From Planctomycetia bacterium (lineage in GTDB: Bacteria > Planctomycetota > Planctomycetia > Pirellulales > UBA1268): DNA of 64,000 bases. Location: the NCBI GenBank assembly GCA_026401075.1, contig JAPLNQ010000163.1:498-64497 (forward strand). Reading direction: 5' to 3'. Position numbers and translations under genes: made by a program. Under the pieces are notes generated by a model, which was given only the letters and a program-made list of their open reading frames with translations, was not told where the DNA came from and did no database searches. This document shows, piece by piece, positions 9,311-53,359 of the stretch (the first letter of the stretch is position 1; each line of letters opens with the position of its first letter).

Positions 9311-10096
9311 ATGGCACGTGGCGATCGCCTGCGGGTGGAACGACGGCTGGCCGGTTCGACGGTGGTGTACATGCACCACGGCATCGACGTCGGCGACGGG
9401 ACGGTCGTGCATGCGCGGCCGGACGACTTCCGCAGCCCGCTGGCGGGCGGCCGTGTGGAACGCACGAGCCGGGCGGAATTCGCCGGCGGCGGCACGGTGC
9501 TCGTGACGACGGAACCGCCCGCGGACTATCCGCCGGACGAGATCGTCGCGCGAGCGCTCGACCATGTCGGCCGGGAGGGCTACTGCCTGGTGGTCGACAA
9601 CTGCGAACACTTCGCCACCTGGTGTGCGACCGGCAAACGGACGAGCCGGCAGGTCGACATCGTGCTGTCGAGGGTCAGCGGCGCGGCGGCGCGGATCGCG
9701 GCATTCGTGTCGGCCCGCAGGCTGCTGGCAAACGCAGCCGCCGGCGCCGCCGAACGAATCGCCGTTCAGACAGCCCTGGGCATTTCAGCGCGAACCACAG
9801 TACGGCTGGGCCTGCGGACGCTCGTGCCGGCGGCCATCGCCGGAGAGGCTGCGGCCCTGGCCGCTGAATGGACGGCCCATCATGCCGGCCGATCCGCCGC
9901 CGACAGCCGCCGGGCCGGCGAGGCCGCCGGACTCGCCACATCGGCGGCGGCATGCGCGCTGGCCGGTCTTCCGGCCGGGCCGGGCGGCGTGATCGCCGGG
10001 GCGGTCGCGGGGGCCGCGGTCTGGGCCAGTGGCGGGCTGGTCACGCAGGCGGCCACGGCTGCCGTCGGCGTCAGTCGCGGTCGTGGTAGTCGGTGA
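9311..10096 (+). CDS. LRAT/NlpC-P60 superfamily (NC-domain) protein with Ala/Gly-rich hydrophobic C-terminal half
   Basis: [16 protein letters not shown] (conserved His) and [15 protein letters not shown] (the NCEHF catalytic Cys motif of the LRAT/H-rev107 family). The C-terminal ~140 aa are Ala/Gly rich with hydrophobic stretches. Confidence 0.7.
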
Positions 10097-12044
10097 GCGG
10101 TCCGGGCGTCCATGAGACGCGCAGCGCGTTGAGCACCGCCACCACGTCGATCGCCTCCTGAAGGAGCGCGCCCATCGCGGGCGACAAAAACCCCGCGGCC
10201 GCGAAGCCCATGCCGATCACGCTTGCCGCCATGCCCCCCACGGCGCTTTGCAGCGCGATCGACCGCAGCCGGCGGCCGATGTGTAGCAGTTCGTCGATGC
10301 GTTCGAGTGCCGTGTCCATCACGACGGCGCCGGCCGCCTCGCTGGTCACGTCGCTGGCCGCGCCCATCGCGATGCCGACCGTCGCCGCCGCGAGCGCCGG
10401 CGCATCATTGATCCCATCTCCGACAAACAAGGTCGGCGCCTCGGCCGTCGCCTCCTCCACGATCTTCAGCTTGCCCTCGGGCTGGATGCCGGCATGCACC
10501 TCGGTGATGCCGACCAGATCGGCGAGCCACCGCACTTCGCTCTCGCGGTCTCCGGAGACGAGCATCACGCGGGAGAGGCCGTGGGCCGGTTTCAAATGGC
10601 TGACGAACGGCCGGCCATCGGCCCGCGGCGAGTCGCGGAAGCGGAGCAGGGCCTCGGTCTTGCCGTCCACCACGACCACGCATTCAAGACCGCCGGCCAC
10701 GGGCGGCAGTTTCGCGACTCCCGCGGCATCGACGTTGGGGAGTTTCTGGCGGCTGGTGATCGCCACCTCGTGCACCGTGCTGTCGCCGTTCAACTGCTTC
10801 ACCTGGCCGACGAGCCCCTGCCCGGGCTTCTCGGCCAAGGCCTCGACCTCGAGCACGCGGAGCGATTCCTTCGCGGCGGACTGCACGACGGCTGCGGAGA
10901 GCGGGTGCTTCGAGTAGGTTTCGAGACTGGCGGCCAGCGATAGCACGTCGGCCCGGGACAAGCCGCCGAGGAGCACGACGTCGGTGAGACTGGGCTCGCC
11001 GTAGGTGAGCGTGCCCGTCTTGTCGAAGATGGCGATGCGGCAGGTGTCGAGCCGTTCGAGGATGGCCGGGTCGCGGATCACGATGCCACGCTTGGCGGCC
11101 AGCGACACGGCGCCGATGATCGCCACCGGGATCGCGATCAGGAGCGGGCACGGGGTGGCGACGACGAGCACCGCGAGAAACCGCGTGGCGCTGCCGCTGA
11201 ACCACCATGCGGCGGCCGCGATCGCCACGGCCAGCGGCGTGTAAAAGGCGCCGAGCTTGTCGGCCATTCGCCGCAGTTGCGGCCGGTGCTCCTCACTCGA
11301 GCGGAGCACGTCCATGATCTTGGCGTAGCGGCTGTCGCCGGCCACGCGGTCGGTGCGAATCTCGAGGGCGGCCTGCCCGTTGATCGCACCGGAGAGCGCG
11401 GCCGATCCCGGAGCCTTCGCCATCCTGTAGGGCTCGCCAGTGAGATAACTCTCATCCATCGACCCGCGGCCCGACACCACCGTGCCGTCCACCGGACAGA
11501 TCTCGTGTGGCAGCACGACAACAAGATCGCCCACGGCAACCTCCGAGAGCATGATGTCGGCCAGGCCGGCAGCCGTCTTGCGATGGGCGAGCGTCGGCAT
11601 CCGCCGGGCCAGAGCGTTGAGCACATCGCCGGCCCGGCTGATGGCACGCGACTCGAGCGCCTCGCCCCCCGAAAGCATCAGCACGACGAGCACGCCGGCG
11701 AGGTATTCACCCAAGAGAATGCTCGTGATGATCGACAGGCCGGCCAGCAGATCAGAGCCAAACGTGCCCGCACAGAGCTTGCGCAGCAGATCCCAGACCA
11801 GCGGCACGCCCCCCGCGACGAGCATCACCACCAGCGGCAGATCGGCCAGCGTGAGGCCGCGTCCAGGAAACCAGCGGGCGGGATCGAGCGGCCCAAGCGC
11901 CACCGACTCTCCGCCCCGGCCCGACCAGGTGATCAGGGCCCAGGCGGCCAGGGCAAGCAATGCTCCGACTGCGATTAGCTCATTGATCGGCAGCGGGCGG
12001 ATGGCTGGCTGGCTGGGTGCGTGAGGGGCTGCGGGAGTGTTCAT
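10071..12044 (-). CDS. P1B-type heavy-metal translocating P-type ATPase (TPCP transmembrane motif, no N-terminal metal-binding domain)
   Basis: Track ORF 10071..12143. Motifs: [24 protein letters not shown], and [15 protein letters not shown] in the metal-binding TM helix. The start is set at ATG 12044 (MNTPAAP...) because the upstream part of the ORF overlaps repeat copy B. Confidence 0.85.
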
Positions 12045-12093
12045 TCGAAGCGGGCCTCTGGATGTCGTGGCGATGCAGCGTGGTGTTCTGGGA

Positions 12094-12165
12094 CGTGGCC
12101 GCGAGTTTGCAACTTGCGGAATCTGTACCGCAGCAACGGGCAAGTTGAAAACTTGCCACCACAGG
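12094..12165. repeat. Double-hairpin intergenic repeat, family 1, copy B
   Basis: cgtggCCGCGAGTTtgcAACTTGCGGaatctgtaccgcagcaacGGGCAAGTTgaaAACTTGCCaccacagg. Lies between the miaE stop and the ATPase start. Confidence 0.85.
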
Positions 12166-45220: not shown

Positions 45221-46252
45221 TTATTTCGCCGGCTGGCTGGCACCTGCCGCCGGCGCACTCTCGGTCGCTGGCGTCCCTGCCGCCGCTTGCACGGCCGTCA
45301 ACTCGTCGAGGGCGACGACCGAGATCACGTGCCGGCCCCAGGCATGCAGCCGGTAGCGCTCGAGCAGGCCTATATCCCGCTTACCGTTGGCGTTGGGGTC
45401 GTTGACCACCAGGCTGGCAGTGAAGGCCTTGTCGCGATCAGTATCGAGGTAGGGCTCGCCGTCATCGTGCTGCTTGTTACCGTTCAGATCGGCGAAGGGC
45501 TCGCTCCAGCGAGGCGGAGGCGGAGGCGGAGCGGGGGGTGTGGGCGGGGGATTCTCGGGCTTAGCTTTCTTGCCTTTCTTGTCCTGCTTGTCCTGCTTGT
45601 CATTGTCGAGTGGCTTGTCGCGATTCACCTGCTCCTGCTGGGCGACAGCATTGCCCTTGGTGTCTGCGGCATCGAGCACAGCCGGGGCCACGTCAGGCGA
45701 CGGCTCTGGAACACTTCCGGGCTCGCCGTCGAGCAGGACCGCGCGTTTTGCGTCGTCCGGCTCGACGCAGCGGGCGAAGGTCCGCAGCATTCGCGTGCCC
45801 ATGTCGTAGCCCAGCGTGGAACCATCGAGCCGGAACGCCTCGGGTACCGGCGCGATCGAGCAGGCGATCAGGAGCGTTCCGGCGAGGATGATGCCCGCCA
45901 CGGCCCCCACCAGCGCGCCGCCGAGTTTGTCGATGATCGGCGCAAACCGCACCACCTCGGCAGGAACGTATCCGCCCATCGCCAGCCGGGTTGCAACGGC
46001 CGTACCGACCAAGAGCAGGCCAAAGGCCGCTGGAAACGCATACACGATTGGCAGTTCAAAGGTCGTGAGCAACGCCGCCAGCGGATCGGCGAAGGCCAGC
46101 GCGAACACAAGCGCCAGAAGCGCCTGCATGCCAGTCAGCACCGCCAGAAACAGTCCGTTCTGCACGCCAAAGGCCACGAGCGCCAGCACGACGCCACCCA
46201 CGATGAGGTCGCCAAACCGCTGCAGGATGGACACCGCCAGCAGCATCAGCAT
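45221..46252 (-). CDS. CvpA-like integral membrane protein with Pro-rich linker and Asp-rich (Ca-binding-like) C-terminal region
   Basis: The N-terminal ~170 aa have 4 hydrophobic helices resembling the CvpA family. Then KDKKGKKAKPENPPPTPPAPPPPPP, and DLNGNKQHDDGEPYLDTDRD / NDPNANGKRD. Confidence 0.5.
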   Translation of the reverse strand: MLMLLAVSILQRFGDLIVGGVVLALVAFGVQNGLFLAVLTGMQALLALVFALAFADPLAALLTTFELPIVYAFPAAFGLLLVGTAVATRLAMGGYVPAEVVRFAPIIDKLGGALVGAVAGIILAGTLLIACSIAPVPEAFRLDGSTLGYDMGTRMLRTFARCVEPDDAKRAVLLDGEPGSVPEPSPDVAPAVLDAADTKGNAVAQQEQVNRDKPLDNDKQDKQDKKGKKAKPENPPPTPPAPPPPPPRWSEPFADLNGNKQHDDGEPYLDTDRDKAFTASLVVNDPNANGKRDIGLLERYRLHAWGRHVISVVALDELTAVQAAAGTPATESAPAAGASQPAK

Positions 46253-46292
46253 GAGTGCCTCGCCTGCGACGACGGTGGATACACAATGCTGC

Positions 46293-47999
46293 TCACTTGG
46301 TCACCCGCACGATCTCGTTGATGCTCGTGATGCCAGCCAACACCTTGGCGATGCCCGATTCCTGCAGGGTCCGCGTGCCCGCCTTGCGGGACGCTGCGCG
46401 GATGGCCTGGATCGACGGGTGCTCCACGAGCAGCTCGCGAATGGCATTGTCGAACACGAGCAATTCATGCACACCCGTGCGGCCCTTGTAGCCGGTGCCG
46501 TGGCAGGCCGGGCAGCCCTTTTCCTTGTAGATCGTCACTTCCTTGTCAGCGGGCACGCCCAGCTTCTGCCGGAATTCAGCCGGCGCCGGATAGGGCTCCT
46601 TGCACTTGGGACAGAGCACGCGGACGAGACGCTGGGCGAGCACCGCAGTGATCGCCGACTGGATGAGCGAGGTGTCGATGCCGATGTCGAGCAGCCGCGT
46701 GATGGTCGTCGCCGTGTCGTTGGCGTGCAAGGTCGTGAAGACGAAATGGCCCGTCATCGCCGCCTGCATCGCGATCTCGGCCGTCTCCTTGTCGCGAATC
46801 TCTCCCACAAGGATCACGTCCGGATCCTGCCGCAGCACCGATCGTAGAATCTTCGCGAACGTCAGGTCGGCAGCCGTGTTGACGGCCGTCTGCGAGATAT
46901 TTTCGAGCTGGTATTCGATCGGGTCTTCGATGGTGACGATGTTGCGGGAGAGGACGTCGATCTCGCTCAAGGCGACGTAGAGGGTCGTCGTCTTGCCCGA
47001 GCCGGTGGGGCCACAGACGATCAGCATGCCGTGGGGTTGCTGGACGATCGCCTGAAGCGTTTTGAGCATCGAGTCCCGCATGCCCAGCGAGGTGAGCCCC
47101 CCCTTGATGACGGTACTGTCGGCATCGAGCAGCCGTAATGCCATCTTCTCGCCGAAGTTGGTGGGCCCGGAGGCCGCACGGACGTCGAACTTGTGGCCGC
47201 CCTTCAGCACGGCAAACGTGCCGTCCTGCGGCCGCCGCCGTTCCGCGATGTCCATGTTGGCACAGACCTTGATGGCCGACACGACGGCCTTGGCAGCCGA
47301 TCCCTTGAGCGTCGACACGTTCTGCATGATGCCGTCAATACGGCAGCGGACGGTCAATTCCTCGGCGGCCTTGGGTTCGAGGTGGATGTCGGTGGACCGC
47401 ATCCCGATCGCCTTCTCAAAGATCTGCTGCACGGTCTTGATCGCCCGCGAGGCCTCGCGATCCAGGCCGTCGCTGCCCTGCCCGTCGACGGGGGTGCCGT
47501 CTTTCTTCAGGATCACGACCGAGATGTCGGCTTCGCGGCTAGCGATGTGGCCGACCGGAAACCACTTTTCGAACGATTTTTGCATGCCCGTTTTCGTGGC
47601 GACCAGGAACATCATCTTCCGGGCGAACCGCTGGGTGAACATCTTGCGGGTCGAGGGCGCCTTGGTGTCGCGATAGGCGACATACCCCACGAAACTGGCG
47701 GGCAAGGCCACGAGAAACAACGGCAGCATGCCCAGGCCGTACTGGTAGGTGATAAAGAAGAAGACCGCACCAGCGGCCACGAAGGGCAACGACCAGGGGA
47801 AGTCATCGCCCAGGATCTCCTGGTAATCGGTGTCCACCCATATGCAGAACGCCGCCCAGGCGGTGGCCAGAATGACCCAAGCCACGCCCAGCCATACCAA
47901 GCGGTCGATCGCGGCCGCCGAGAGCATTCCTGTCACCTTTTCCAAGGACTGTGCCAACGTCGGAGCGCCCGTCGCGCCGATCGACGACAGTACCCTCAC
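46293..47999 (-). CDS. GspE/PilB-family secretion ATPase with N-terminal transmembrane anchor
   Basis: Walker A GPTGSGKTTT, GEIRDKETA, Asp/His boxes, and a tetracysteine CPKC...CPAC. The first ~95 aa contain three hydrophobic helices in place of the usual soluble N-domain. Alternative start at ATG 47924. Confidence 0.85.
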   Translation of the reverse strand: MRVLSSIGATGAPTLAQSLEKVTGMLSAAAIDRLVWLGVAWVILATAWAAFCIWVDTDYQEILGDDFPWSLPFVAAGAVFFFITYQYGLGMLPLFLVALPASFVGYVAYRDTKAPSTRKMFTQRFARKMMFLVATKTGMQKSFEKWFPVGHIASREADISVVILKKDGTPVDGQGSDGLDREASRAIKTVQQIFEKAIGMRSTDIHLEPKAAEELTVRCRIDGIMQNVSTLKGSAAKAVVSAIKVCANMDIAERRRPQDGTFAVLKGGHKFDVRAASGPTNFGEKMALRLLDADSTVIKGGLTSLGMRDSMLKTLQAIVQQPHGMLIVCGPTGSGKTTTLYVALSEIDVLSRNIVTIEDPIEYQLENISQTAVNTAADLTFAKILRSVLRQDPDVILVGEIRDKETAEIAMQAAMTGHFVFTTLHANDTATTITRLLDIGIDTSLIQSAITAVLAQRLVRVLCPKCKEPYPAPAEFRQKLGVPADKEVTIYKEKGCPACHGTGYKGRTGVHELLVFDNAIRELLVEHPSIQAIRAASRKAGTRTLQESGIAKVLAGITSINEIVRVTK

Positions 48000-48110
48000 A
48001 ACCTCTTTCCCTTAGTATTCCACAATTTCTACCCTGCTGCGCCAAAGAAATCCACGGAATCAGTCCCTCGCGGCCGCAGGCCGGCCCCGACGAGCGGCTA
48101 TGATGGAGGC

Positions 48111-49562
48111 ATGATCGTCAACCACTCTCCCGCCCCGGCCGCAGCGGATTCGCAACCCCCGCGGCTGGCGAAAAAGCGGTTTCTGCACGACGCGGCGGAG
48201 TATGTCCGCGACACGGGCCACCGCGCCTTTGTCCGCAAGGCGCTCAACGGCTACTACGCCAGCCGCGACCTCCAAAAAGCCCGCTTTCGAAACTGGGAGC
48301 ATGCCCGAGACGCGGCCAGCCTGGCGAAATGGTCGGCTGTGAACCGGCTCGACGAACTCCTGCCCCGATTCGTCGCCGCCTTCGAGGCCAATGGCGGGCA
48401 GGTGCACTGGGCGCGGGATGCCGAAGAGGCGCGAAAGATCGTACTGGAATTGGTGCGGGCCGCCCGTGCCAAGGCGATCATCAAGAGCAAGTGCATGACC
48501 AGCGAGGAGATCCACTTAAACGCGGCGCTCGAGGCCGATGGCTACGGCGTGGTGGAGAGCGACCTGGGCGAGTTCATCCAGCAGCTCCGCGGAGAACCGC
48601 CGTATCACTTCGTCTTCCCCTGCATGCATGTCCGTCGGGATGAGATCAGCGACCTGTTCGGCAAGCATCTCGGCACGGCACCGACCGACAGCCCCGAGGA
48701 ACTCACGATGATCGCCCGACGGCACATGCGCCGGCTCTACATCGATGCCGACGTGGGGATCACGGGGGCGAACTTTCTCGTTGCCGAGACCGGCCAGATC
48801 TCGATCACGGAAAACGAGGGCAATGCCCGGCTCACGGCGGCGCTGCCGCGGGTCCACATCGCCATCTCTGGCATCGAAAAGGTGGTGGAGCACCTCGACG
48901 ACCTCGCAGTGCTCCTGCCGATGCTGGCCACGGCCGGGACGGGCCAGCCCATGACCTGCTACAACACGCTTTATGCAGGGCCACGTCGCGCCGGCGAGGC
49001 CGACGGCCCCGAGGAGATGCATTTGGTCCTCCTCGACAACTCGCGGACGGCGATCCTCGCCGACCCCGAGCAGCGGGACAGCCTCCACTGCATTCGTTGC
49101 GGCGCCTGCCTGAATGTCTGCCCGATCTTCAAGAATGTCGGCGGCTTCACCTACGGCACCACCTACCAGGGCCCGATCGGATCGGTGATCACGCCGCACC
49201 TCCGTGGTCTCGCCGACTGGAACCACCTCTCGGCAGCCAGTTCGCTCTGCGGAGCCTGCACCGATGCCTGTCCGGTGCGAATCGACATTGCCCATCACCT
49301 GCTCCACAACCGCCGCAACGCCGCCCGCACCGCCCCCAACGCCTGGGAACGCCTGGGACACAGGCTGTTTGTGATGGTGGCCCGCCGCCCTTGGCTCTTC
49401 GGCCTGGGCGGGGCGGTCTTTCGCCACACGCTGCCTCTGCTGAAGGCTCTCCGGCCGCCGCTGTTGCGGGACTGGCTCGCCTCGCGCGACCTGCCGGCGG
49501 CCCCGCGGCAGAGTTTCCGCCGACAGTGGGAGCGCCGGCAGCCGCGGGAGGGCAGGGCATGA
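48111..49562 (+). CDS. lutB: Lactate utilisation protein B (4Fe-4S ferredoxin-type, LUD domain)
   Basis: Track ORF 47193..49562. ATG 48111 follows GATGGAGG. CIRCGACLNVCP and CGACTDACP clusters. Confidence 0.88.
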   Translation: MIVNHSPAPAAADSQPPRLAKKRFLHDAAEYVRDTGHRAFVRKALNGYYASRDLQKARFRNWEHARDAASLAKWSAVNRLDELLPRFVAAFEANGGQVHWARDAEEARKIVLELVRAARAKAIIKSKCMTSEEIHLNAALEADGYGVVESDLGEFIQQLRGEPPYHFVFPCMHVRRDEISDLFGKHLGTAPTDSPEELTMIARRHMRRLYIDADVGITGANFLVAETGQISITENEGNARLTAALPRVHIAISGIEKVVEHLDDLAVLLPMLATAGTGQPMTCYNTLYAGPRRAGEADGPEEMHLVLLDNSRTAILADPEQRDSLHCIRCGACLNVCPIFKNVGGFTYGTTYQGPIGSVITPHLRGLADWNHLSAASSLCGACTDACPVRIDIAHHLLHNRRNAARTAPNAWERLGHRLFVMVARRPWLFGLGGAVFRHTLPLLKALRPPLLRDWLASRDLPAAPRQSFRRQWERRQPREGRA

Positions 49563-50362
49563 GCGGCGAGACGGGGATGTCGGCCCGCGAGGTGATCTTG
49601 GCGCGGATCACCGAGGCACTGCGCGTGCCGGCACCGCTCCCGCACGGCCTTACAGCGGAAAGCCAGTCACAGGTACGCCAGCCACAGCCGCGAGCAGCGG
49701 TGACGACCAGCGGCGCGTCCACGGCGGGCATCACGGTTACGCACGCCGCCGCGGGACTCCCCACCCTCACCGTGCTGCCCGAGGAGGTGGCCCGGCCATG
49801 GCTGCCCGATGGCGGTGAGACGCAGGCCGAACGGTTGCAGCTTCTGATCGAGAATCTCGTCAAACTCCGCGCCATCGTGCAGCAGGTGCCCGATCTCACC
49901 GCCGCCAGCGACTACCTCTTCACGATCGCGCGGGAACGGGACTGGCAGCGAGTCGCCTGGCATCCCCATCCGCTGGTGGAACCGCTTCTGGGTGGCGTGC
50001 CATGCGCGACCTACCGCGTCGACGCCGCGGATTTTGAGAAAAACTCGCTTGAATCCTGCGATGCCGGCATCACGTCGTGCGAGGCGCTGGTCGCCCAGAC
50101 CGGTTCGATTCTCGTCTCCAGCGCCACCTCGGGCGGACGGGCGCTCTCGATCCTGCCGCACGTGCACATCGTCGTGGCCACGTGCGACCAGATCGTGGCC
50201 ACGCTCGCCGATGCCCTCCATGCCGCGAAGGAAAGGCATGAGGGCCACATGCCGAGCATGCTCTCCTTCATCACCGGCCCCAGCCGCACCGGCGACATCG
50301 AGCGGATCCTCGTACTGGGGGCCCACGGGCCGAAGGAATTGATCCTCATCCTGGTCGGCTGA
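49559..50362 (+). CDS. lutC: Lactate utilisation protein C (LUD domain)
   Basis: Track ORF 49097..50362. ATG 49559 overlaps the lutB TGA (ATGA). ITSCEALVAQTGSILVSS...ILPHVHIVV... Confidence 0.8.
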   Translation: MSGETGMSAREVILARITEALRVPAPLPHGLTAESQSQVRQPQPRAAVTTSGASTAGITVTHAAAGLPTLTVLPEEVARPWLPDGGETQAERLQLLIENLVKLRAIVQQVPDLTAASDYLFTIARERDWQRVAWHPHPLVEPLLGGVPCATYRVDAADFEKNSLESCDAGITSCEALVAQTGSILVSSATSGGRALSILPHVHIVVATCDQIVATLADALHAAKERHEGHMPSMLSFITGPSRTGDIERILVLGAHGPKELILILVG

Positions 50363-50463
50363 TCCTGGTCGTGTGGCCGACGATTTGCCTTTTGTCTTGG
50401 ACACGCCTACCGTTTATTGGACGAAGCGGTTGAGGTTGTGGCGAAAAGGAAAATGAGGATCGC

Positions 50464-51039
50464 ATGTCTGCGAGAGTGGCACGCACGGCTTCGATCGGCC
50501 GATTTTCCTGCCGGATGCCGGCGATCGGTCGCCGGGCAGCGCGCGTGACCTACGCAGTCCTGGTCCTCGCCGCCCAGATTGCCTTGCTGTCGCCGGGCGT
50601 CTGCGACGCCTGCGTGAAGGGCTGCTGCGAGAGCGGCACACCCCGGATCGTAGACGTCGCCTCTCCCATTCTGGGATCGAATCTGCCGTCATCCACTGGC
50701 ATCAGTGGCTGCGGGTCGGACCGTTGCTGCTGCCTTCCCGTCGCAGACCGCGACGCCGAAAGGCGGGCGGATCGTGGTGCCGCTGGCGTCACCGCGGCCT
50801 GCCGCTGCCAGCTTGAGCCGCGGCAGATCCCGCCGGCCGACCTCCAGTCTGGGGGATTCTCCGGCCGGCGCGAGATCGTCCGATCGTGGACAAACGTGGA
50901 TGCGGATGTGCCCGTGGCCTGGCTGCCGCCGCTCACCGGGCGGCACGATGGCCTGCAGTCGCTCGCCTTCGCCCAGGCATCGGCAGCCGCGATTCCATCC
51001 CGCCCGGTCCGGGTGCTCTATGGGGTCTGGCGGAATTGA
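50464..51039 (+). CDS. Hypothetical membrane-anchored/exported Cys-motif protein (GVCDACVKGCCESG)
   Basis: GAGGA lies 6 nt upstream of the ATG. Strong G/C third-position bias in this frame. Hydrophobic segment VTYAVLVLAAQIALL, followed by Cys blocks (11 Cys in total). Confidence 0.6.
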   Translation: MSARVARTASIGRFSCRMPAIGRRAARVTYAVLVLAAQIALLSPGVCDACVKGCCESGTPRIVDVASPILGSNLPSSTGISGCGSDRCCCLPVADRDAERRADRGAAGVTAACRCQLEPRQIPPADLQSGGFSGRREIVRSWTNVDADVPVAWLPPLTGRHDGLQSLAFAQASAAAIPSRPVRVLYGVWRN

Positions 51040-51127
51040 ATCGCTCGACGTCTCTCGTCGAGCCCTTGCCGGCACACGTCGTGGCGGCACTGATTCACTT
51101 TCCTGTCTGATTTCAAGGAGCTTTTCC

Positions 51128-51313
51128 ATGTTTCCATTGTTGCTTTGGACTGCGTTCTTTCTGGCCCCGATGAGCACTGCCACGGCCCAGGCTGGCTGTG
51201 GGGTGTGCGACTGCTGCGGCTGCTGCGAAAGCGGCGTGTGTGCCTGCAAGGTCTGCGCGTGCTGCTGCTGTCAGACCGACTGCTGTGACGGAGGCGGGTG
51301 CTGCAGCCGCTAA
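51128..51313 (+). CDS. 61-aa exported peptide with 17 cysteines (metallothionein-like density)
   Basis: AAGGAG lies 8 nt upstream of the ATG. MFPLLLWTAFFLAPMSTATAQA signal (AQA site), then GCGVCDCCGCCESGVCACKVCACCCCQTDCCDGGGCCSR. An intrinsic terminator lies 38 nt downstream. Confidence 0.65.
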   Translation: MFPLLLWTAFFLAPMSTATAQAGCGVCDCCGCCESGVCACKVCACCCCQTDCCDGGGCCSR

Positions 51314-51351
51314 CCGTCTGACCAGCCGGCTTCGAGCCAGTCGTTGTTTCG

Positions 51352-51388
51352 CCGGCCGGGCGGCCTCTGCCGCCCGGCCGGTCTTTTT
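51352..51388 (+). terminator. Intrinsic terminator
   Basis: Perfect 12-bp GC stem (ccggccgggcgg / ccgcccggccgg), 6-nt loop, then tcttttt. Confidence 0.75.
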
Positions 51389-51420
51389 GGCGCATCGTCT
51401 GGCCTGCTACCATCCGAACC

Positions 51421-51612
51421 ATGACGTCACCCCGCTGCCCTGTCTGTCAGGGCCAAACCCTTGAGATTCGCGCCAAACTGATCTGCCGGGAATGCGGCAT
51501 GATCCTCGAAACCTGCTGCGAGGGCGGGCCCATGGGGCAGGGCATTTCCTGCCCGCAGCCGCCTGCATCACCGGCACCATCGGCGCCACCTGACGAATCT
51601 CAGCGCGGCTGA
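51421..51612 (+). CDS. Small zinc-ribbon protein (hypothetical)
   Basis: 63 aa. CPVCQG-x14-CRECG, then ETCCEGG and a Pro-rich tail. G/C third-position bias. No obvious SD, so moderate confidence only. Confidence 0.4.
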   Translation: MTSPRCPVCQGQTLEIRAKLICRECGMILETCCEGGPMGQGISCPQPPASPAPSAPPDESQRG

Positions 51613-51841
51613 GTTTTTCGACCAGGAAAGATCGATCTTCTGGTGTGAGTTTGCCTGTCGCGCAAACCCTGGCGATCGCGGTGAGATGCCACGTACGGCT
51701 CTGCGATCTGCTTCGGGAGTGCGGCTGTCGACTCGGCCGGGACGATTGCGGCGGAAGTTCACCGACTGGGGGTGGCCTCCACGCGAAGCCTGGAAACGTG
51801 GTTGCAAAACGTTTTGCCTGTTTTTTCCTCTGGAGGTTCCT

Positions 51842-53359
51842 GTGAAGAAGCGTTTGACTTTCGGCTTCCTGCCCTGGATAGCCGCCGCCGGCGTGTGTGT
51901 CGTTGGTGGTTTTGTTCGTGGTGAAGATGCCGCGACGAGTGTTGCGGCTGACGGTTCCGTCCTGGTAGGCGGTGCCGATGCCGCTGCGGCCGCTCCGGCC
52001 GAAGCTGCCGTTGCGGGCGACGCCTGCATGAAGACGGTGAAGGTATGGAAGATGGTCCCGGAGATCCGGGAAGTGGAGAGCACGGAGTGGGCGACCGAGG
52101 TCCGTGAGCGTTCGTTCACGGTTACCAAGAAGGTCCCGCGGATCGAAGAGCGGACACGGAACTACACGGTGATGGTGCCGGAGCAGCGCACGAAGTCGGT
52201 GGACTACACCGTCAACGTGAACGTTCCGGAGACGCGGACGGCGACCTACAACGTGTCCGTGCCCTACACCGAGCAGCGTGAAGATTCCTACAAGGTGATG
52301 GTGCCGGTCAAGGAAGAGCGGACCCGGTCGTGGAAGGTGAACGTGCCCTACACCGAGCAGGTCGAGCAGACCTACACGGTGATGGTGCCGGTCAAGGAAG
52401 AGCGGACGGCCACCTACAAGGTGAACGTGCCCTACACCGAGCAGCGGACGGCCACCTACAAGGTGAACGTGCCCTACACCGAGCAGCTCGAGCAGGCTTA
52501 CTCGGTGATGGTGCCCTACACCGAGCAGCTGACCGGCTATCGCACGGTGTCGAAGCGCGTGCCCACCAAGAGCACGAAGACCGTGACCTGCCGTGGTGGC
52601 AGCTGGGTGACCGAGGCCAAGGAGATTTCCGCCAACGGCAAGTATGACGCCGCCGGCAATCCCTGCTGCCCGAAGGTCGTCTGCTGCCGTCGCTGGGTCC
52701 CCACCTGCGAGACCAAGGAGATCGAGGTCACGCTGTGGAAGGTCGAGTGCGAGCAGGTTGCCTACACCTACTGCGTGAAGAAGAGCCGCTGCGAGCAGCG
52801 GACGCGGACGGTGTGCGTGCAGAAGAGCCGTTGCGAAGAGCGGACCCGTAACTACTGCGTGAAGCTGTCACGCTGCGAGGAGCGGACCCGCAACTACTGT
52901 GTCACGAAGATGGTTCCGGAGAACCGCACCCGGATGATCTGCGTGAAGAAGTCGCGTTGCGAGGATCGGTCGGCCACCTACTGCGTCACCAAGATGGTTC
53001 CGGAGTGCCGGACCCGTACGGTGTGCGTGAAGAAGTGCCGCACCGAGACCCGCACCCGCGAGTACACGGTGAACAAGTGCGTGCCTGAGACGCGGACCAA
53101 GGAAGTTTCCTACACGGTGATGGTGCCGGTCCAGAAGACCGCCAACTACACGGTGTGCGTCAGCGACAACGTGTCGGAGACGAAGACCGAGTCGTACGTC
53201 GTCCGCGTGCCCAAGAAGGTCACGAAGTCGGTGTGCACGCAGGTCCGCAAGTGCGTCGAAGAGCAGGTCCCGGCCGACAACGGCTGTGGCGGCTCGGGCA
53301 GCAATGGCGGCAACGGTGCCGGCAAGCGTGGCCTCCTCGGCTGCAAGAAGGGCTGCTAA
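51842..53359 (+). CDS. YTV-repeat, Cys-rich secreted envelope protein
   Basis: Track ORF 51686..53359. The GTG at 51842 has GGAGG 5 nt upstream. Signal VKKRLTFGFLPWIAAAGVCVVGG. Many Y-T-V/Y-K-V-containing repeats (NYTVMVPEQRT, TYKVNVPYTEQ) in the first half and CVKKSRCEERTRNY-type repeats in the second. About 29 Cys. Confidence 0.85.
   Translation: MKKRLTFGFLPWIAAAGVCVVGGFVRGEDAATSVAADGSVLVGGADAAAAAPAEAAVAGDACMKTVKVWKMVPEIREVESTEWATEVRERSFTVTKKVPRIEERTRNYTVMVPEQRTKSVDYTVNVNVPETRTATYNVSVPYTEQREDSYKVMVPVKEERTRSWKVNVPYTEQVEQTYTVMVPVKEERTATYKVNVPYTEQRTATYKVNVPYTEQLEQAYSVMVPYTEQLTGYRTVSKRVPTKSTKTVTCRGGSWVTEAKEISANGKYDAAGNPCCPKVVCCRRWVPTCETKEIEVTLWKVECEQVAYTYCVKKSRCEQRTRTVCVQKSRCEERTRNYCVKLSRCEERTRNYCVTKMVPENRTRMICVKKSRCEDRSATYCVTKMVPECRTRTVCVKKCRTETRTREYTVNKCVPETRTKEVSYTVMVPVQKTANYTVCVSDNVSETKTESYVVRVPKKVTKSVCTQVRKCVEEQVPADNGCGGSGSNGGNGAGKRGLLGCKKGC
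52403..52486 (+). repeat. Perfect 42-bp tandem duplication inside the YTV gene
   Basis: cggacggccacctacaaggtgaacgtgccctacaccgagcag x2 (RTATYKVNVPYTEQ x2), embedded in an ~81-bp higher-order repeat starting near 52296. Confidence 0.9.

What the first reader, a model, noticed from the sequence alone, without database searches (positions are those of the whole stretch)
51128..51313. 61-aa secreted peptide with 17 Cys in a 39-residue mature region
Seen: ATG 51128 is preceded by AAGGAG at 8-nt spacing. The leader MFPLLLWTAFFLAPMSTATAQA is hydrophobic with an A-x-A cleavage site and, unusually, has no basic residue. The mature sequence GCGVCDCCGCCESGVCACKVCACCCCQTDCCDGGGCCSR is 44% Cys (17/39), including a CCCC run and five CC pairs. 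A perfect 12-bp stem terminator with a T-run starts 38 nt after the stop, which argues for a discrete, expressed small gene. Inference: Cys density at this level is otherwise typical of metallothioneins, which are cytoplasmic. An exported version would be unusual. It could act as a periplasmic or extracellular metal (Cu/Zn/Cd) sponge or as a poly-disulfide cross-linker.
Basis: partly seen in the sequence, partly recalled or inferred. Interest (0 to 1): 0.75.

Follow-up and report, generated by a model that had tools for sequence, protein, structure and literature searches.

The report
Exported metallothionein-like peptide, two-gene cassette
This is a real, conserved small gene from an undescribed family in Planctomycetia that encodes a leader-bearing peptide one-third to nearly one-half cysteine; it always follows a membrane-anchored cysteine-motif partner gene and in one sub-clade sits next to a copper-exporting pump, so it is most likely an envelope metal (probably copper) binder.

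Summary
ORF 51128..51313 (+) encodes 61 aa with 17 Cys in the last 39 residues. It has an AAGGAG Shine-Dalgarno site and a 14-bp GC-rich terminator.

The gene is real. More than 100 homologue clusters exist, all unannotated and from Planctomycetia metagenomes or MAGs. The frame is intact in close relatives, dN/dS is 0.16-0.6, and invariant Cys columns use both TGC and TGT.

No member of the family matches Pfam, NCBIfam or PDB. The mature part has metallothionein composition: 33.5% Cys, 13% Gly, almost no aromatic residues or His, and CxC/CC/CxxC spacing.

- The gene is the second half of a conserved two-gene cassette. The upstream partner (50464..51039) has a basic signal/anchor helix, Cys motifs, a disordered body and an invariant C-terminal GVWRN.
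- In three different flanking contexts, from one sub-clade, a Cu(I)-type P1B ATPase (CPC, YN and MxxSS motifs) lies directly downstream.

Best reading (about 0.45): an exported metallothionein-like Cu(I)/soft-metal buffer that works with its partner. Export, metal binding and expression were not tested. A disulfide cross-linker role, next to a YTV envelope protein in this lineage only, remains a rival.

The parts
50464..51039 (+). Partner gene (191 aa). It has a basic N-terminus, one TM/signal-anchor helix (residues 22-42), the Cys motifs C-x2-C-x3-CC and C-x-C-Q-L, a disordered body, and the invariant C-terminus ...RP-x-R-(I/V)-L-x-GVWRN.
   Evidence: A homologue lies immediately upstream of the peptide gene, on the same strand, in every locus examined. 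The family has 179 clusters, all unannotated. No Pfam, NCBIfam or PDB match. AF2 predicts a confident helix at 22-42 and pLDDT below 50 for the rest. An in-frame 3-nt indel relative to L001 supports coding.
51044..51062 (+). Perfect 7-bp hairpin (CTCGACG-TCTCT-CGTCGAG) just after the partner's stop codon.
   Evidence: Read from the sequence. Hairpins of different sequence occupy the same position in L006, L012, L016 and L018. Function unknown.
51073..51099 (+). Conserved intergenic motif, CACACGTCGTG...GATTCA(C)T. It is probably a promoter or operator for the peptide gene.
   Evidence: This stretch is almost identical between the window and L001 although coding DNA is only about 90% identical. 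CACACGTCGTGACGTGG...GATCGATTCA is conserved in loci whose peptides are only about 45% identical, and it occurs once per locus about 30 nt upstream of the ATG. RNAalifold gives no structural support. There is no sigma-70 match.
51115..51120 (+). Shine-Dalgarno site AAGGAG, 7 nt before the ATG.
   Evidence: Read from the sequence. An A/G-rich equivalent (AAAGGA, AGAGGG, TAGGAG) sits at the same distance in the homologous loci.
51128..51193 (+). Leader (22 aa), MFPLLLWTAFFLAPMSTATAQA. It is signal-peptide-like, with a hydrophobic core and an A-x-A site but no basic residue.
   Evidence: The leader is conserved across the family with consensus MNSLILWAALALVPFVPA.
51194..51313 (+). Cys-rich mature region (39 aa, 17 Cys) plus the stop codon. 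Family core: GC-x2-C-D-CC-G-CC-E-(S/T)-G-x-C-x-C-x2-C-x-C-x-CC.
51351..51388 (+). Intrinsic terminator: 14-bp stem (13 G-C), CTCT loop, T-run.
   Evidence: It is identical in L001. Equivalent 13-bp terminators follow the peptide gene in L006 and L016.

Best explanation
The ORF encodes a member of an undescribed, Planctomycetia-restricted family of small metallothionein-like peptides carrying an N-terminal export leader. It is made from its own strongly terminated transcription unit, directly downstream of a partner gene. The partner is a membrane-anchored, largely disordered protein with conserved Cys motifs facing the same side of the membrane.

Most likely mechanism (inferred):
- The leader takes the Cys-rich domain across the cytoplasmic membrane.
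- There its 13-19 thiolates bind soft metal ions, most plausibly Cu(I) delivered to the periplasm by a CopA-type P1B-1 ATPase. This buffers or sequesters the metal.
- The partner acts as a membrane-tethered co-binder, docking site or metal-transfer partner.

What is shown and what is inferred:
- Shown: the gene is real and under purifying selection, the family exists, its composition and motifs, the conserved pairing, and the recurrent adjacency to a Cu(I)-type ATPase.
- Inferred: export, cleavage, metal binding, the identity of the metal, and any interaction with the partner.
For: - Real gene.
- Family: 11 representatives in an exhaustive HMMER scan of 1.84 billion proteins and 107 clusters with a profile. 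The few source names that identify an organism say Planctomycetia or Pirellulaceae.
- Metallothionein composition of the mature part across 107 members: 33.5% Cys, 12.9% Gly, and F, Y, W and H each at or below 0.3%, with CxC/CC/CxxC spacing.
- AF2 predicts no stable fold (pLDDT 53). Metallothioneins are described as folding only on metal binding (PMC7558416).
- Outward topology. The N-flank carries no charge and the C-flank averages -1.5. 92 of 107 members have a -3/-1 small-residue site. One homologue carries a C-terminal dockerin (PF00404). The partner has a basic n-region and a confident TM helix.
- Conserved cassette in all 10 distinct genomic contexts examined.
- Copper link. In L006/L007, L016 and L018/L019, which have three different sets of flanking genes, the next gene on the same strand is a P-type ATPase with YHS and HMBD N-terminal domains. 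It carries CPCALGLATP...YN... and MSLSS. From my own knowledge of Arguello's P1B classification, not checked in a paper here, these motifs mark Cu(I)/Ag(I) P1B-1 pumps.
- Precedent for exported Cys-based copper binders: Csp1 and the bufferins (PMC7558416, PMC11626156).
Against: - No experiment or expression data of any kind.
- The ATPase adjacency occurs in one sub-clade only (3 of 10 contexts). It is absent from this window, and a strong terminator separates the two genes.
- The conserved upstream motif is not found in front of the ATPase.
- 91 of 107 leaders lack any basic residue, which is atypical for Sec signal peptides. No trained signal-peptide predictor was available.
- Many free thiols outside the cytoplasm would be expected to oxidise. 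Known exported Cys-based copper binders avoid this by folding before Tat export (Csp1) or by converting Cys to thiooxazoles (bufferins).
- In this window's lineage the neighbour is a YTV envelope-type protein, which fits a structural role equally well.
Confidence: 0.45

Rival explanations
1. Structural disulfide cross-linker of the planctomycetal proteinaceous envelope. The exported peptide, and perhaps its partner, forms intermolecular disulfides with Cys-rich envelope proteins such as YTV-domain proteins and so tunes wall rigidity.
For: - The next large gene in this window (51686..53359) is a YTV-domain protein with Cys-rich C-terminal repeats. The same arrangement occurs in L017.
- Cys-rich YTV proteins are found in planctomycete cell-wall preparations and are restricted to Planctomycetia (PMC8567305, PMC10632474). 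The few organism names given for this family say the same group.
- The leader and the dockerin fusion point outward.
Against: - The YTV adjacency is confined to one lineage: window/L003, L017 and probably the P0097 contig, whose 530-aa neighbour has no Pfam record. The other nine contexts have unrelated neighbours.
- The composition (no aromatic or hydrophobic residues, acidic, with CC and CxC runs) is that of a metal-thiolate binder rather than a folded disulfide scaffold.
- Adjacent CC pairs are poor disulfide formers.
Confidence: 0.15
2. Membrane-anchored rather than released. The leader is an uncleaved TM anchor. The Cys-rich domain sits at the membrane surface, possibly the cytoplasmic face, as a tethered Cu(I) chaperone feeding the ATPase, in the manner of Streptococcus CupA next to copA.
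For: - There is no basic n-region in 91 of 107 members.
- The uncharged stretch has a median length of 18 residues, long enough to span a membrane.
- The gene lies immediately upstream of a CopA-type pump in three contexts.
- CupA is a membrane-anchored Cu chaperone (PMC7558416).
- Free thiols are stable in the cytoplasm.
Against: - The flank after the helix is net negative (mean -1.5). Only 63 of 107 members have any K or R there, so the charge difference favours N-in/C-out.
- Prolines and a polar c-region with small -3/-1 residues look like a cleavable signal.
- The dockerin fusion argues for an outside location.
- The partner clearly faces outward.
Confidence: 0.12
3. Precursor of a post-translationally modified peptide (RiPP-type metallophore or other thiol-modified product). 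The leader serves as a recognition or export sequence, and modifying enzymes are encoded elsewhere.
For: - It has a conserved leader plus a Cys-rich core.
- Bufferins set a precedent for Sec-exported, Cys-derived copper-binding RiPPs (PMC11626156).
Against: - No MNIO/DUF692, DUF2063, radical-SAM, YcaO or lanthipeptide-type gene is conserved near the cassette in 10 contexts. The only radical-SAM gene, in L016, is 6.5 kb away and not conserved.
- The only conserved neighbour is a small disordered protein, not an enzyme.
- No DUF2282 match.
Confidence: 0.1
4. Secreted toxin or bacteriocin-like peptide with an immunity or partner protein, or a sacrificial thiol/redox buffer. The two-gene cassette moves between genomic contexts.
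For: - It is a compact two-gene cassette in varied neighbourhoods with its own promoter-like motif and terminator.
Against: - The mature peptides are acidic (median net charge -3) and lack hydrophobic or aromatic residues, unlike the antimicrobial peptides I know of (own knowledge).
- Selection is purifying rather than diversifying.
- No mobility genes lie nearby, and there are no plasmid hits.
Confidence: 0.06
5. Not a gene: a chance ORF in a TGC-rich, high-GC stretch.
For: - High-GC DNA yields many spurious ORFs, and several overlap this region on both strands.
Against: - Over 100 homologue clusters keep the leader and the Cys pattern.
- dN/dS is below 1 in all pairs.
- Invariant Cys columns show synonymous TGC/TGT variation.
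- The Shine-Dalgarno site and terminator are conserved.
Confidence: 0.02

Closest known systems
Metallothioneins (e.g. mycobacterial MymT, cyanobacterial SmtA/BmtA, eukaryotic MT1/2, fungal Cu-thioneins)
   Same: Small size, 33-44% Cys, CxC/CC/CxxC spacing, virtual absence of aromatic residues and His, and no predicted stable apo-fold.
   Different: No sequence relationship to any Pfam metallothionein family. It carries a conserved N-terminal export-type leader, whereas the metallothioneins I know lack one and are cytoplasmic (own knowledge). It is always paired with a membrane-anchored partner gene. Metal binding is untested.
Bufferins (BufA; DUF2282 and BUF_6/12Cys RiPP metallophores, PMC11626156)
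   Same: Small proteins with a signal-peptide-type leader and conserved Cys, linked to copper handling.
   Different: Bufferins need an adjacent MNIO enzyme (DUF692) and a DUF2063 partner that convert Cys to thiooxazoles. Neither is present in any of the 10 contexts. Bufferins have 4-12 Cys in 60-70 residues and a predicted fold. This family has 13-19 Cys in 35-55 residues and no predicted fold.
Csp1 copper storage proteins (Tat-exported four-helix bundles, PMC7558416)
   Same: Exported, Cys-thiolate-based, high-capacity Cu(I) binders.
   Different: Csp1 is a four-helix bundle that forms homotetramers, folds as the apo-protein and has a Tat signal sequence. This peptide is 39 aa, has no twin-arginine and has no predicted fold.
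CupA of Streptococcus (membrane-anchored Cu chaperone encoded next to copA)
   Same: An N-terminal hydrophobic segment. In one sub-clade the gene lies immediately upstream of a CopA-type ATPase.
   Different: From my own knowledge, CupA is a folded cupredoxin-like domain with two defined Cu sites facing the cytoplasm. Here the domain is a Cys-rich, disordered peptide, and charge distribution favours an outward orientation.
YTV-domain Cys-rich envelope proteins of Planctomycetia
   Same: Cys-rich, likely extracytoplasmic, with the same taxonomic range as far as named, and a neighbouring gene in this window.
   Different: There is no YTV domain in the peptide. YTV proteins here are several hundred residues long with repeat structure. 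The adjacency is lineage-specific.

Membership tests
Metallothionein (operational definition) | Low molecular weight (below 10 kDa) | tested here: met
   61-aa precursor and 39-aa mature part. Family members are 46-110 aa.
Metallothionein (operational definition) | High Cys content (about 30%) arranged as CxC, CC and CxxC | tested here: met
   17 of 39 residues (44%) in the window. The family mean is 33.5%, with core C-x2-C-x-CC-x-CC-x4-C-x-C-x2-C-x-C-x-CC.
Metallothionein (operational definition) | Few or no aromatic residues or His | tested here: met
   F 0.3%, Y 0.2%, W 0.1% and H 0.2% of mature residues across 107 members.
Metallothionein (operational definition) | Metal-thiolate clusters and high metal content | not testable with these tools
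   Needs ICP-MS, ESI-MS or spectroscopy on expressed peptide.
Described metallothionein sequence families (Pfam Metallothio*, SmtA-type) | Significant match to a family profile | tested here: not met
   No Pfam or NCBIfam metallothionein hit for the window peptide or any of 94 homologues, even at E up to 10. No PDB sequence match.
Bufferins (MNIO-dependent RiPP metallophores) | Adjacent MNIO (DUF692) and DUF2063 genes | tested here: not met
   Neither family appears in the precomputed Pfam annotation of neighbours in 10 distinct contexts or in the L005 ORFs.
Bufferins (MNIO-dependent RiPP metallophores) | Precursor with a DUF2282 or BUF_6/12Cys signature | tested here: not met
   No DUF2282 hit. 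BUF_6/12Cys has no public profile, so that half could not be tested.
Sec-type cleavable signal peptide | Positively charged n-region | tested here: not met
   The window leader has no K or R. Only 16 of 107 homologues have one in the first 5 residues. A sub-clade has an optional in-frame upstream ATG that would add MQRIFP.
Sec-type cleavable signal peptide | Hydrophobic h-region followed by a c-region with small residues at -3 and -1 | tested here: met
   LLLWTAFFLAP followed by ...A-Q-A|G. The best 10-residue Kyte-Doolittle window has a median of 2.46. 92 of 107 members have a -3/-1 site before the Cys core. This is a heuristic, not a trained predictor.
Sec-type cleavable signal peptide | Demonstrated export and cleavage | not testable with these tools
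   Needs reporter fusions or N-terminal mass spectrometry.
Bacterial lipoprotein | Lipobox [LVI][ASTVI][GAS]C at the end of the h-region | tested here: not met
   The first Cys is preceded by (Q/N)-A-G. It is separated from the hydrophobic core by 5-8 polar residues.
Csp1 copper storage protein | Tat (twin-arginine) signal and four-helix bundle | tested here: not met
   No RR in the leader. AF2 shows only a 7-residue helix at pLDDT 53.
Cu(I)-type P1B-1 ATPase (applies to the neighbouring gene in L006, L016 and L018, not to the peptide) | TM motifs CPC, YN and MxxSS, plus DKTGT | tested here: met
   CPCALGLATP, FALIYNALGVP, MSLSS and DKTGT are present in all three. The N-terminal domains are YHS and HMBD. 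That these motifs mark Cu(I)/Ag(I) pumps rests on my own knowledge of Arguello's P1B classification.

The most novel reading that the evidence does not exclude
Planctomycetia possess a previously unrecognised envelope metal-buffering system. It consists of an unmodified, leader-exported metallothionein with 13-19 thiolates in about 40-55 residues and a membrane-tethered, disordered Cys-motif partner. Together they receive Cu(I) from a CopA-type pump and hold it in the enlarged planctomycetal periplasm. This would be the first natural exported metallothionein in bacteria, and it uses a leader that conspicuously lacks the usual basic n-region.
Probability: 0.3. Interest if true: 0.8.

Novelty: new variant of a known kind. 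Interest (0 to 1): 0.66.

Why it matters
From my own knowledge, the characterised bacterial metallothioneins are few and lack export signals. The two exported Cys-based copper binders I found described avoid thiol oxidation by special means. Csp1 is a stable apo-folded four-helix bundle carrying a Tat signal (PMC7558416). Bufferins have their Cys chemically converted (PMC11626156).

A plain, leader-exported peptide that is one-third to nearly one-half cysteine would therefore be a third solution. It raises a direct question: how are thiols kept functional in the planctomycetal periplasm?

The family and its obligate partner are both absent from Pfam and NCBIfam. Together they form a compact, well-delimited cassette with a leader, a Shine-Dalgarno site, a terminator and a conserved upstream motif, so it is easy to clone and test. 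The cassette may also shed light on copper handling, or on disulfide-based envelope chemistry, in a phylum whose envelope biology is still debated.

If it proves instead to be a structural cross-linker, it would be a new component of the Cys-rich protein wall.

Tried and rejected
- **Rfam.** A scan of 50300-51800 at E up to 10 gave only sub-threshold chance hits.
- **RNAalifold.** The intergenic region of 10 loci gave -5.85 kcal/mol with little covariation, so it is not a structured RNA.
- **Sigma-70 promoter scan.** No sites in the window, L006 or L016. Hand comparison with sigma-54 and ECF consensus sequences was inconsistent between lineages. The window lineage has a 5-nt shorter spacing. 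I make no promoter call.
- **Motif search in the window.** A search for further copies of the intergenic motif gave chance-level matches only. In related loci the motif occurs once per locus and not upstream of the ATPase.
- **PDB sequence searches.** Profiles of the peptide and the partner found nothing.
- **AlphaFold2.** Both proteins came out at low confidence (pLDDT 53 and 50). I therefore did not run fold searches, since they would be meaningless.
- **Pattern scans of collections.** A systematic neighbourhood survey was therefore not possible. Context evidence rests on 10 distinct loci.
- **Plasmid collection.** tblastn with the partner and a family-like peptide gave no match.
- **The 63-aa downstream Zn-ribbon ORF.** I tested it as a possible detached CopA metal-binding domain. 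There is no similarity.
- **Partner-peptide homology.** hhalign gave a probability of only 41% over the leader plus the first Cys motif. This is suggestive, not established.
- **Lipoprotein reading.** Rejected, because there is no lipobox.
- **Literature.** Searches for exported or periplasmic bacterial metallothioneins and for metallothioneins in Planctomycetes found nothing describing this family.
Full report
**1. The observation**

The sequence is as described. AAGGAG lies at 51115-51120, the ATG at 51128 and the TAA at 51311-51313. The product is the 61-aa peptide MFPLLLWTAFFLAPMSTATAQAGCGVCDCCGCCESGVCACKVCACCCCQTDCCDGGGCCSR. The leader has no basic residue and ends in A-Q-A.

The last 39 residues hold 17 Cys. 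The terminator is a 14-bp stem (13 G-C) at 51351-51382, followed by a T-run.

This is the only stretch in all six frames of the window with at least 9 Cys in 40 residues. GC3 is 0.77, in line with neighbouring genes.

**2. Is it a gene?**

Yes. The evidence is comparative:
- An 85%-identical peptide sits in a syntenic JGI contig, L001. Two more close relatives, L015 and L017, keep the frame.
- dN/dS is 0.16-0.61 in 12 pairwise comparisons within two clades.
- Across nine loci whose peptides are down to about 45% identical, the invariant Cys columns use both TGC and TGT. Third codon positions vary most: 57 of 62 columns, against 40 and 41 for positions 1 and 2.
- An exhaustive HMMER scan of 1.84 billion representative proteins found 11 relatives. 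A profile search found 107 clusters at 90% identity.
- Where a source gives a name it is 'hypothetical protein'. The few names that identify an organism say Planctomycetia or Pirellulaceae.
- The window itself is planctomycetal, since its neighbour gene carries the YTV domain.

**3. What the family looks like**

The consensus is MNSLILWAALALVPFVPA(x5-8)AGCPxCDCCGCCETGxCxCxxCTCxCCVDEC. It is often extended by PTAGxKAEREGCCGSGCCSK. The window's lineage lacks the extension and has the densest Cys content.

The mature parts of 107 members have this composition:

| Property | Value |
|---|---|
| Cys | 33.5% |
| Gly | 12.9% |
| F, Y, W, H | each 0.3% or less |
| Median net charge | -3 |
| Median Cys count | 16 |

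That meets the operational definition of a metallothionein. However, no member matches any Pfam or NCBIfam model at E up to 10, or any PDB sequence. AlphaFold2 with a 94-sequence alignment gives pLDDT 53 and no fold. This is compatible with a peptide that folds only around metal ions, but it is not evidence for that.

**4. The leader**

It looks like a signal peptide:
- It has a hydrophobic core (median Kyte-Doolittle score 2.46 over 10 residues).
- Prolines and a polar stretch follow the core.
- A small -3/-1 site is present in 92 of 107 members.

The lack of a basic n-region is family-wide: 91 of 107 members have none. The 15 residues after the hydrophobic segment average a net charge of -1.5. 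The charge difference therefore still favours N-in/C-out, that is, export of the Cys domain.

Other points bearing on topology:
- One homologue (P0031) carries a C-terminal dockerin, a domain I know from extracytoplasmic proteins.
- In one sub-clade an in-frame ATG six codons upstream would add MQRIFP. That stretch is the SD-like AAAGGA region, and it is out of frame or lacks an ATG in other lineages. The shorter start is therefore the conserved one.
- A lipobox is absent.
- No trained signal-peptide predictor was available, so export remains an inference.

**5. A partner gene**

Every locus I could read has a gene of 120-195 aa immediately upstream on the same strand. In the window it is at 50464..51039. 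These loci are the window, L001, L005, L006, L008, L010, L012, L013, L014, L016, L017 and L018.

The partner has these features:
- a basic N-terminus and one hydrophobic helix;
- the motif C-x2-C-x3-CC, and often C-P-x-C;
- the motif C-x-C-Q-L-(D/E)-A-R-Q-x-Q-P;
- a nearly invariant C-terminus, P-I-R-P-x-R-I-L-x-G-V-W-R-N.

The partner family has at least 179 clusters, none annotated. None matches Pfam, NCBIfam or PDB. AlphaFold2 gives a confident helix at residues 22-42 and disorder elsewhere, so it is not an enzyme-like fold.

Its leader plus first Cys motif resembles the start of the peptide. In the window, GCCESG occurs in both. A profile-profile comparison gives only 41% probability.

**6. 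Regulatory anatomy**

- The 88-nt spacer is almost identical between the window and L001, although coding DNA is about 90% identical.
- A hairpin follows the partner's stop codon (51044-51062).
- A motif, CACACGTCGTG...GATTCA (51073-51099), is conserved as CACACGTCGTGACGTGG-N-GATCGATTCA in distant loci. It occurs once per locus, about 30 nt before the ATG.
- RNAalifold gives no structural support. No Rfam family matches. There is no sigma-70 consensus.

I take the motif to be a promoter or operator of unknown type. A strong terminator follows the peptide gene in the window, L006 and L016. The peptide gene is thus a short unit with its own ribosome-binding site and terminator, which hints at, but does not show, strong expression.

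**7. Genomic context**

Beyond the pair, neighbours vary across 10 distinct contexts.

| Context | Neighbours |
|---|---|
| Window, L003, L017, probably the P0097 contig | lutABC upstream; downstream a 63-aa Zn-ribbon ORF and then a YTV protein (window, L017). On the P0097 contig the 530-aa neighbour has no Pfam record |
| L008 | ParAB upstream, a giant protein downstream |
| L010 | unrelated genes |
| L012 | Hcp genes upstream, ABC transporter downstream |
| L013 | unrelated genes |
| L014 | chemotaxis genes |
| L005 | glycosyltransferase upstream, oligopeptide ABC transporter downstream |
| L006/L007, L016, L018/L019 | P-type ATPase directly downstream (see below) |

In L006/L007, L016 and L018/L019 the outer flanks all differ. 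Yet the next gene on the same strand is a 770-aa P-type ATPase with YHS and HMBD N-terminal domains. It carries the TM motifs CPCALGLATP, YN and MSLSS.

From my own knowledge of the P1B classification, these motifs are diagnostic of Cu(I)/Ag(I) exporters. A genome probably holds only a handful of such pumps among several thousand genes (my estimate). Retention of this adjacency through rearrangement of everything around it therefore argues for a functional link.

The caveats are real. It is one sub-clade, the genes are separated by a terminator, and the upstream motif is not repeated before the pump.

**8. Mechanism**

Putting this together, the best-supported model has three steps:
- The peptide is exported.
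- Outside the cytoplasm, its thiolates bind soft metal, most plausibly Cu(I) expelled by CopA.
- The membrane-anchored, Cys-bearing partner acts as a co-binder, dock or transfer partner.

Precedents exist for Cys-based copper buffering outside the cytoplasm. They are Csp1 (PMC7558416) and the Sec-exported bufferins (PMC11626156).

This family fails the defining tests for both. It has no Tat motif or helix bundle. It has no MNIO/DUF2063 genes in any context and no DUF2282 signature. It therefore works like those systems at most; it is not a member of either.

The main difficulty for the model is chemical: how would 13-19 thiols avoid oxidation outside the cytoplasm?

**9. Rivals**

- **(a) A disulfide cross-linker of the Cys-rich protein envelope.** It is favoured by the YTV neighbour here and by the shared taxonomic range (PMC8567305, PMC10632474). 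It is weakened because the adjacency is lineage-specific and the composition is that of a metal binder.
- **(b) An uncleaved anchor holding a cytoplasm-facing chaperone, like CupA.** It is favoured by the missing basic n-region and the position upstream of copA. Flank charges, the dockerin fusion and the outward-facing partner count against it.
- **(c) A RiPP precursor.** No conserved enzyme lies nearby.
- **(d) A toxin/immunity pair or a redox buffer.** The acidic composition and purifying selection argue against a toxin.
- **(e) Not a gene.** This is excluded.

**10. Verdict**

The finding is a new, sizeable, lineage-restricted family. It is best described as a new variant of a known kind: a metallothionein-like peptide with an export leader and an obligate partner. 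Function is inferred, not shown, and confidence in the exported metal-buffer model is about 0.45.

It deserves follow-up because the cassette is compact, the tests are simple (reporter fusions, ICP-MS, native mass spectrometry, metatranscriptome mapping), and either outcome would be new for planctomycete envelope biology.

Noticed in passing
window 51421-51612 (+): A 63-aa ORF with a CxxC...CxxC...CC pattern (MTSPRCPVCQGQ...CRECGMILETCCEGG). It has weak Pfam hits to Zn_Ribbon_TF (E = 0.002) and HMBD (E = 0.059) and its own small terminator at 51599-51613. It is conserved just downstream of the cassette in L001 and L017. It has no leader and no similarity to the CopA N-terminus.
   Followed up: partly
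window 51686-53359 (+): A YTV-domain protein (Pfam PF07639, E = 4.5e-25). It has many V-P-x-x-R-T-type repeats and a Cys-rich C-terminal repeat region. This is the class reported from planctomycete cell-wall preparations. A GT61 glycosyltransferase gene follows. The gene caller on L003 starts it later, giving 505 aa.
   Followed up: partly
window 51073-51099 and the equivalent positions in L006, L008, L010, L012, L013, L016 and L018: A conserved intergenic DNA motif, CACACGTCGTG(ACGTG)G...GATCGATTCA, about 30 nt upstream of the peptide ATG. It contains a 6-2-6 dyad (CACGTC GT GACGTG) in most lineages but not in the window's, which is 5 nt shorter. It occurs once per locus. There is no RNA-structure support and no match to sigma-70.
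   Followed up: partly
window 51044-51062: A perfect 7-bp hairpin immediately after the partner gene's stop codon. Longer hairpins of unrelated sequence sit at the same place in L006, L012, L016 and L018. They might be a partial terminator or an RNA processing or stability element between the two genes.
   Followed up: no
window 10071-12143 (-): A P-type ATPase with DKTGT and GDGINDAP, but with a T-P-C-P membrane motif instead of CPC. It is a different P1B-like subtype from the CopA-type pumps that neighbour the cassette elsewhere. It lies 39 kb away from the cassette.
   Followed up: no
window 45221-50362: The lactate-utilisation-type genes (lutA/CCG, lutB, lutC) are interrupted by a divergently oriented CvpA-like gene (45221-46252, -) and a T2SSE/PilB-type ATPase gene (46293-47999, -). 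The same arrangement occurs in L017, so it is conserved in this lineage.
   Followed up: no
L006, L008, L012, L013, L016 and L018, 18 nt upstream of the called peptide start: In one sub-clade an in-frame ATG six codons upstream would give MQRIFPMNS... and hence a basic n-region. It overlaps the SD-like AAAGGA and is absent or out of frame in other lineages. Which start is used there is open.
   Followed up: partly
protein P0031 (homologue, JGI contig of 1015 nt): One family member has its C-terminal CCGSGCC tail replaced by a dockerin-type repeat domain (PF00404). This is a natural fusion that hints at an extracytoplasmic location.
   Followed up: no
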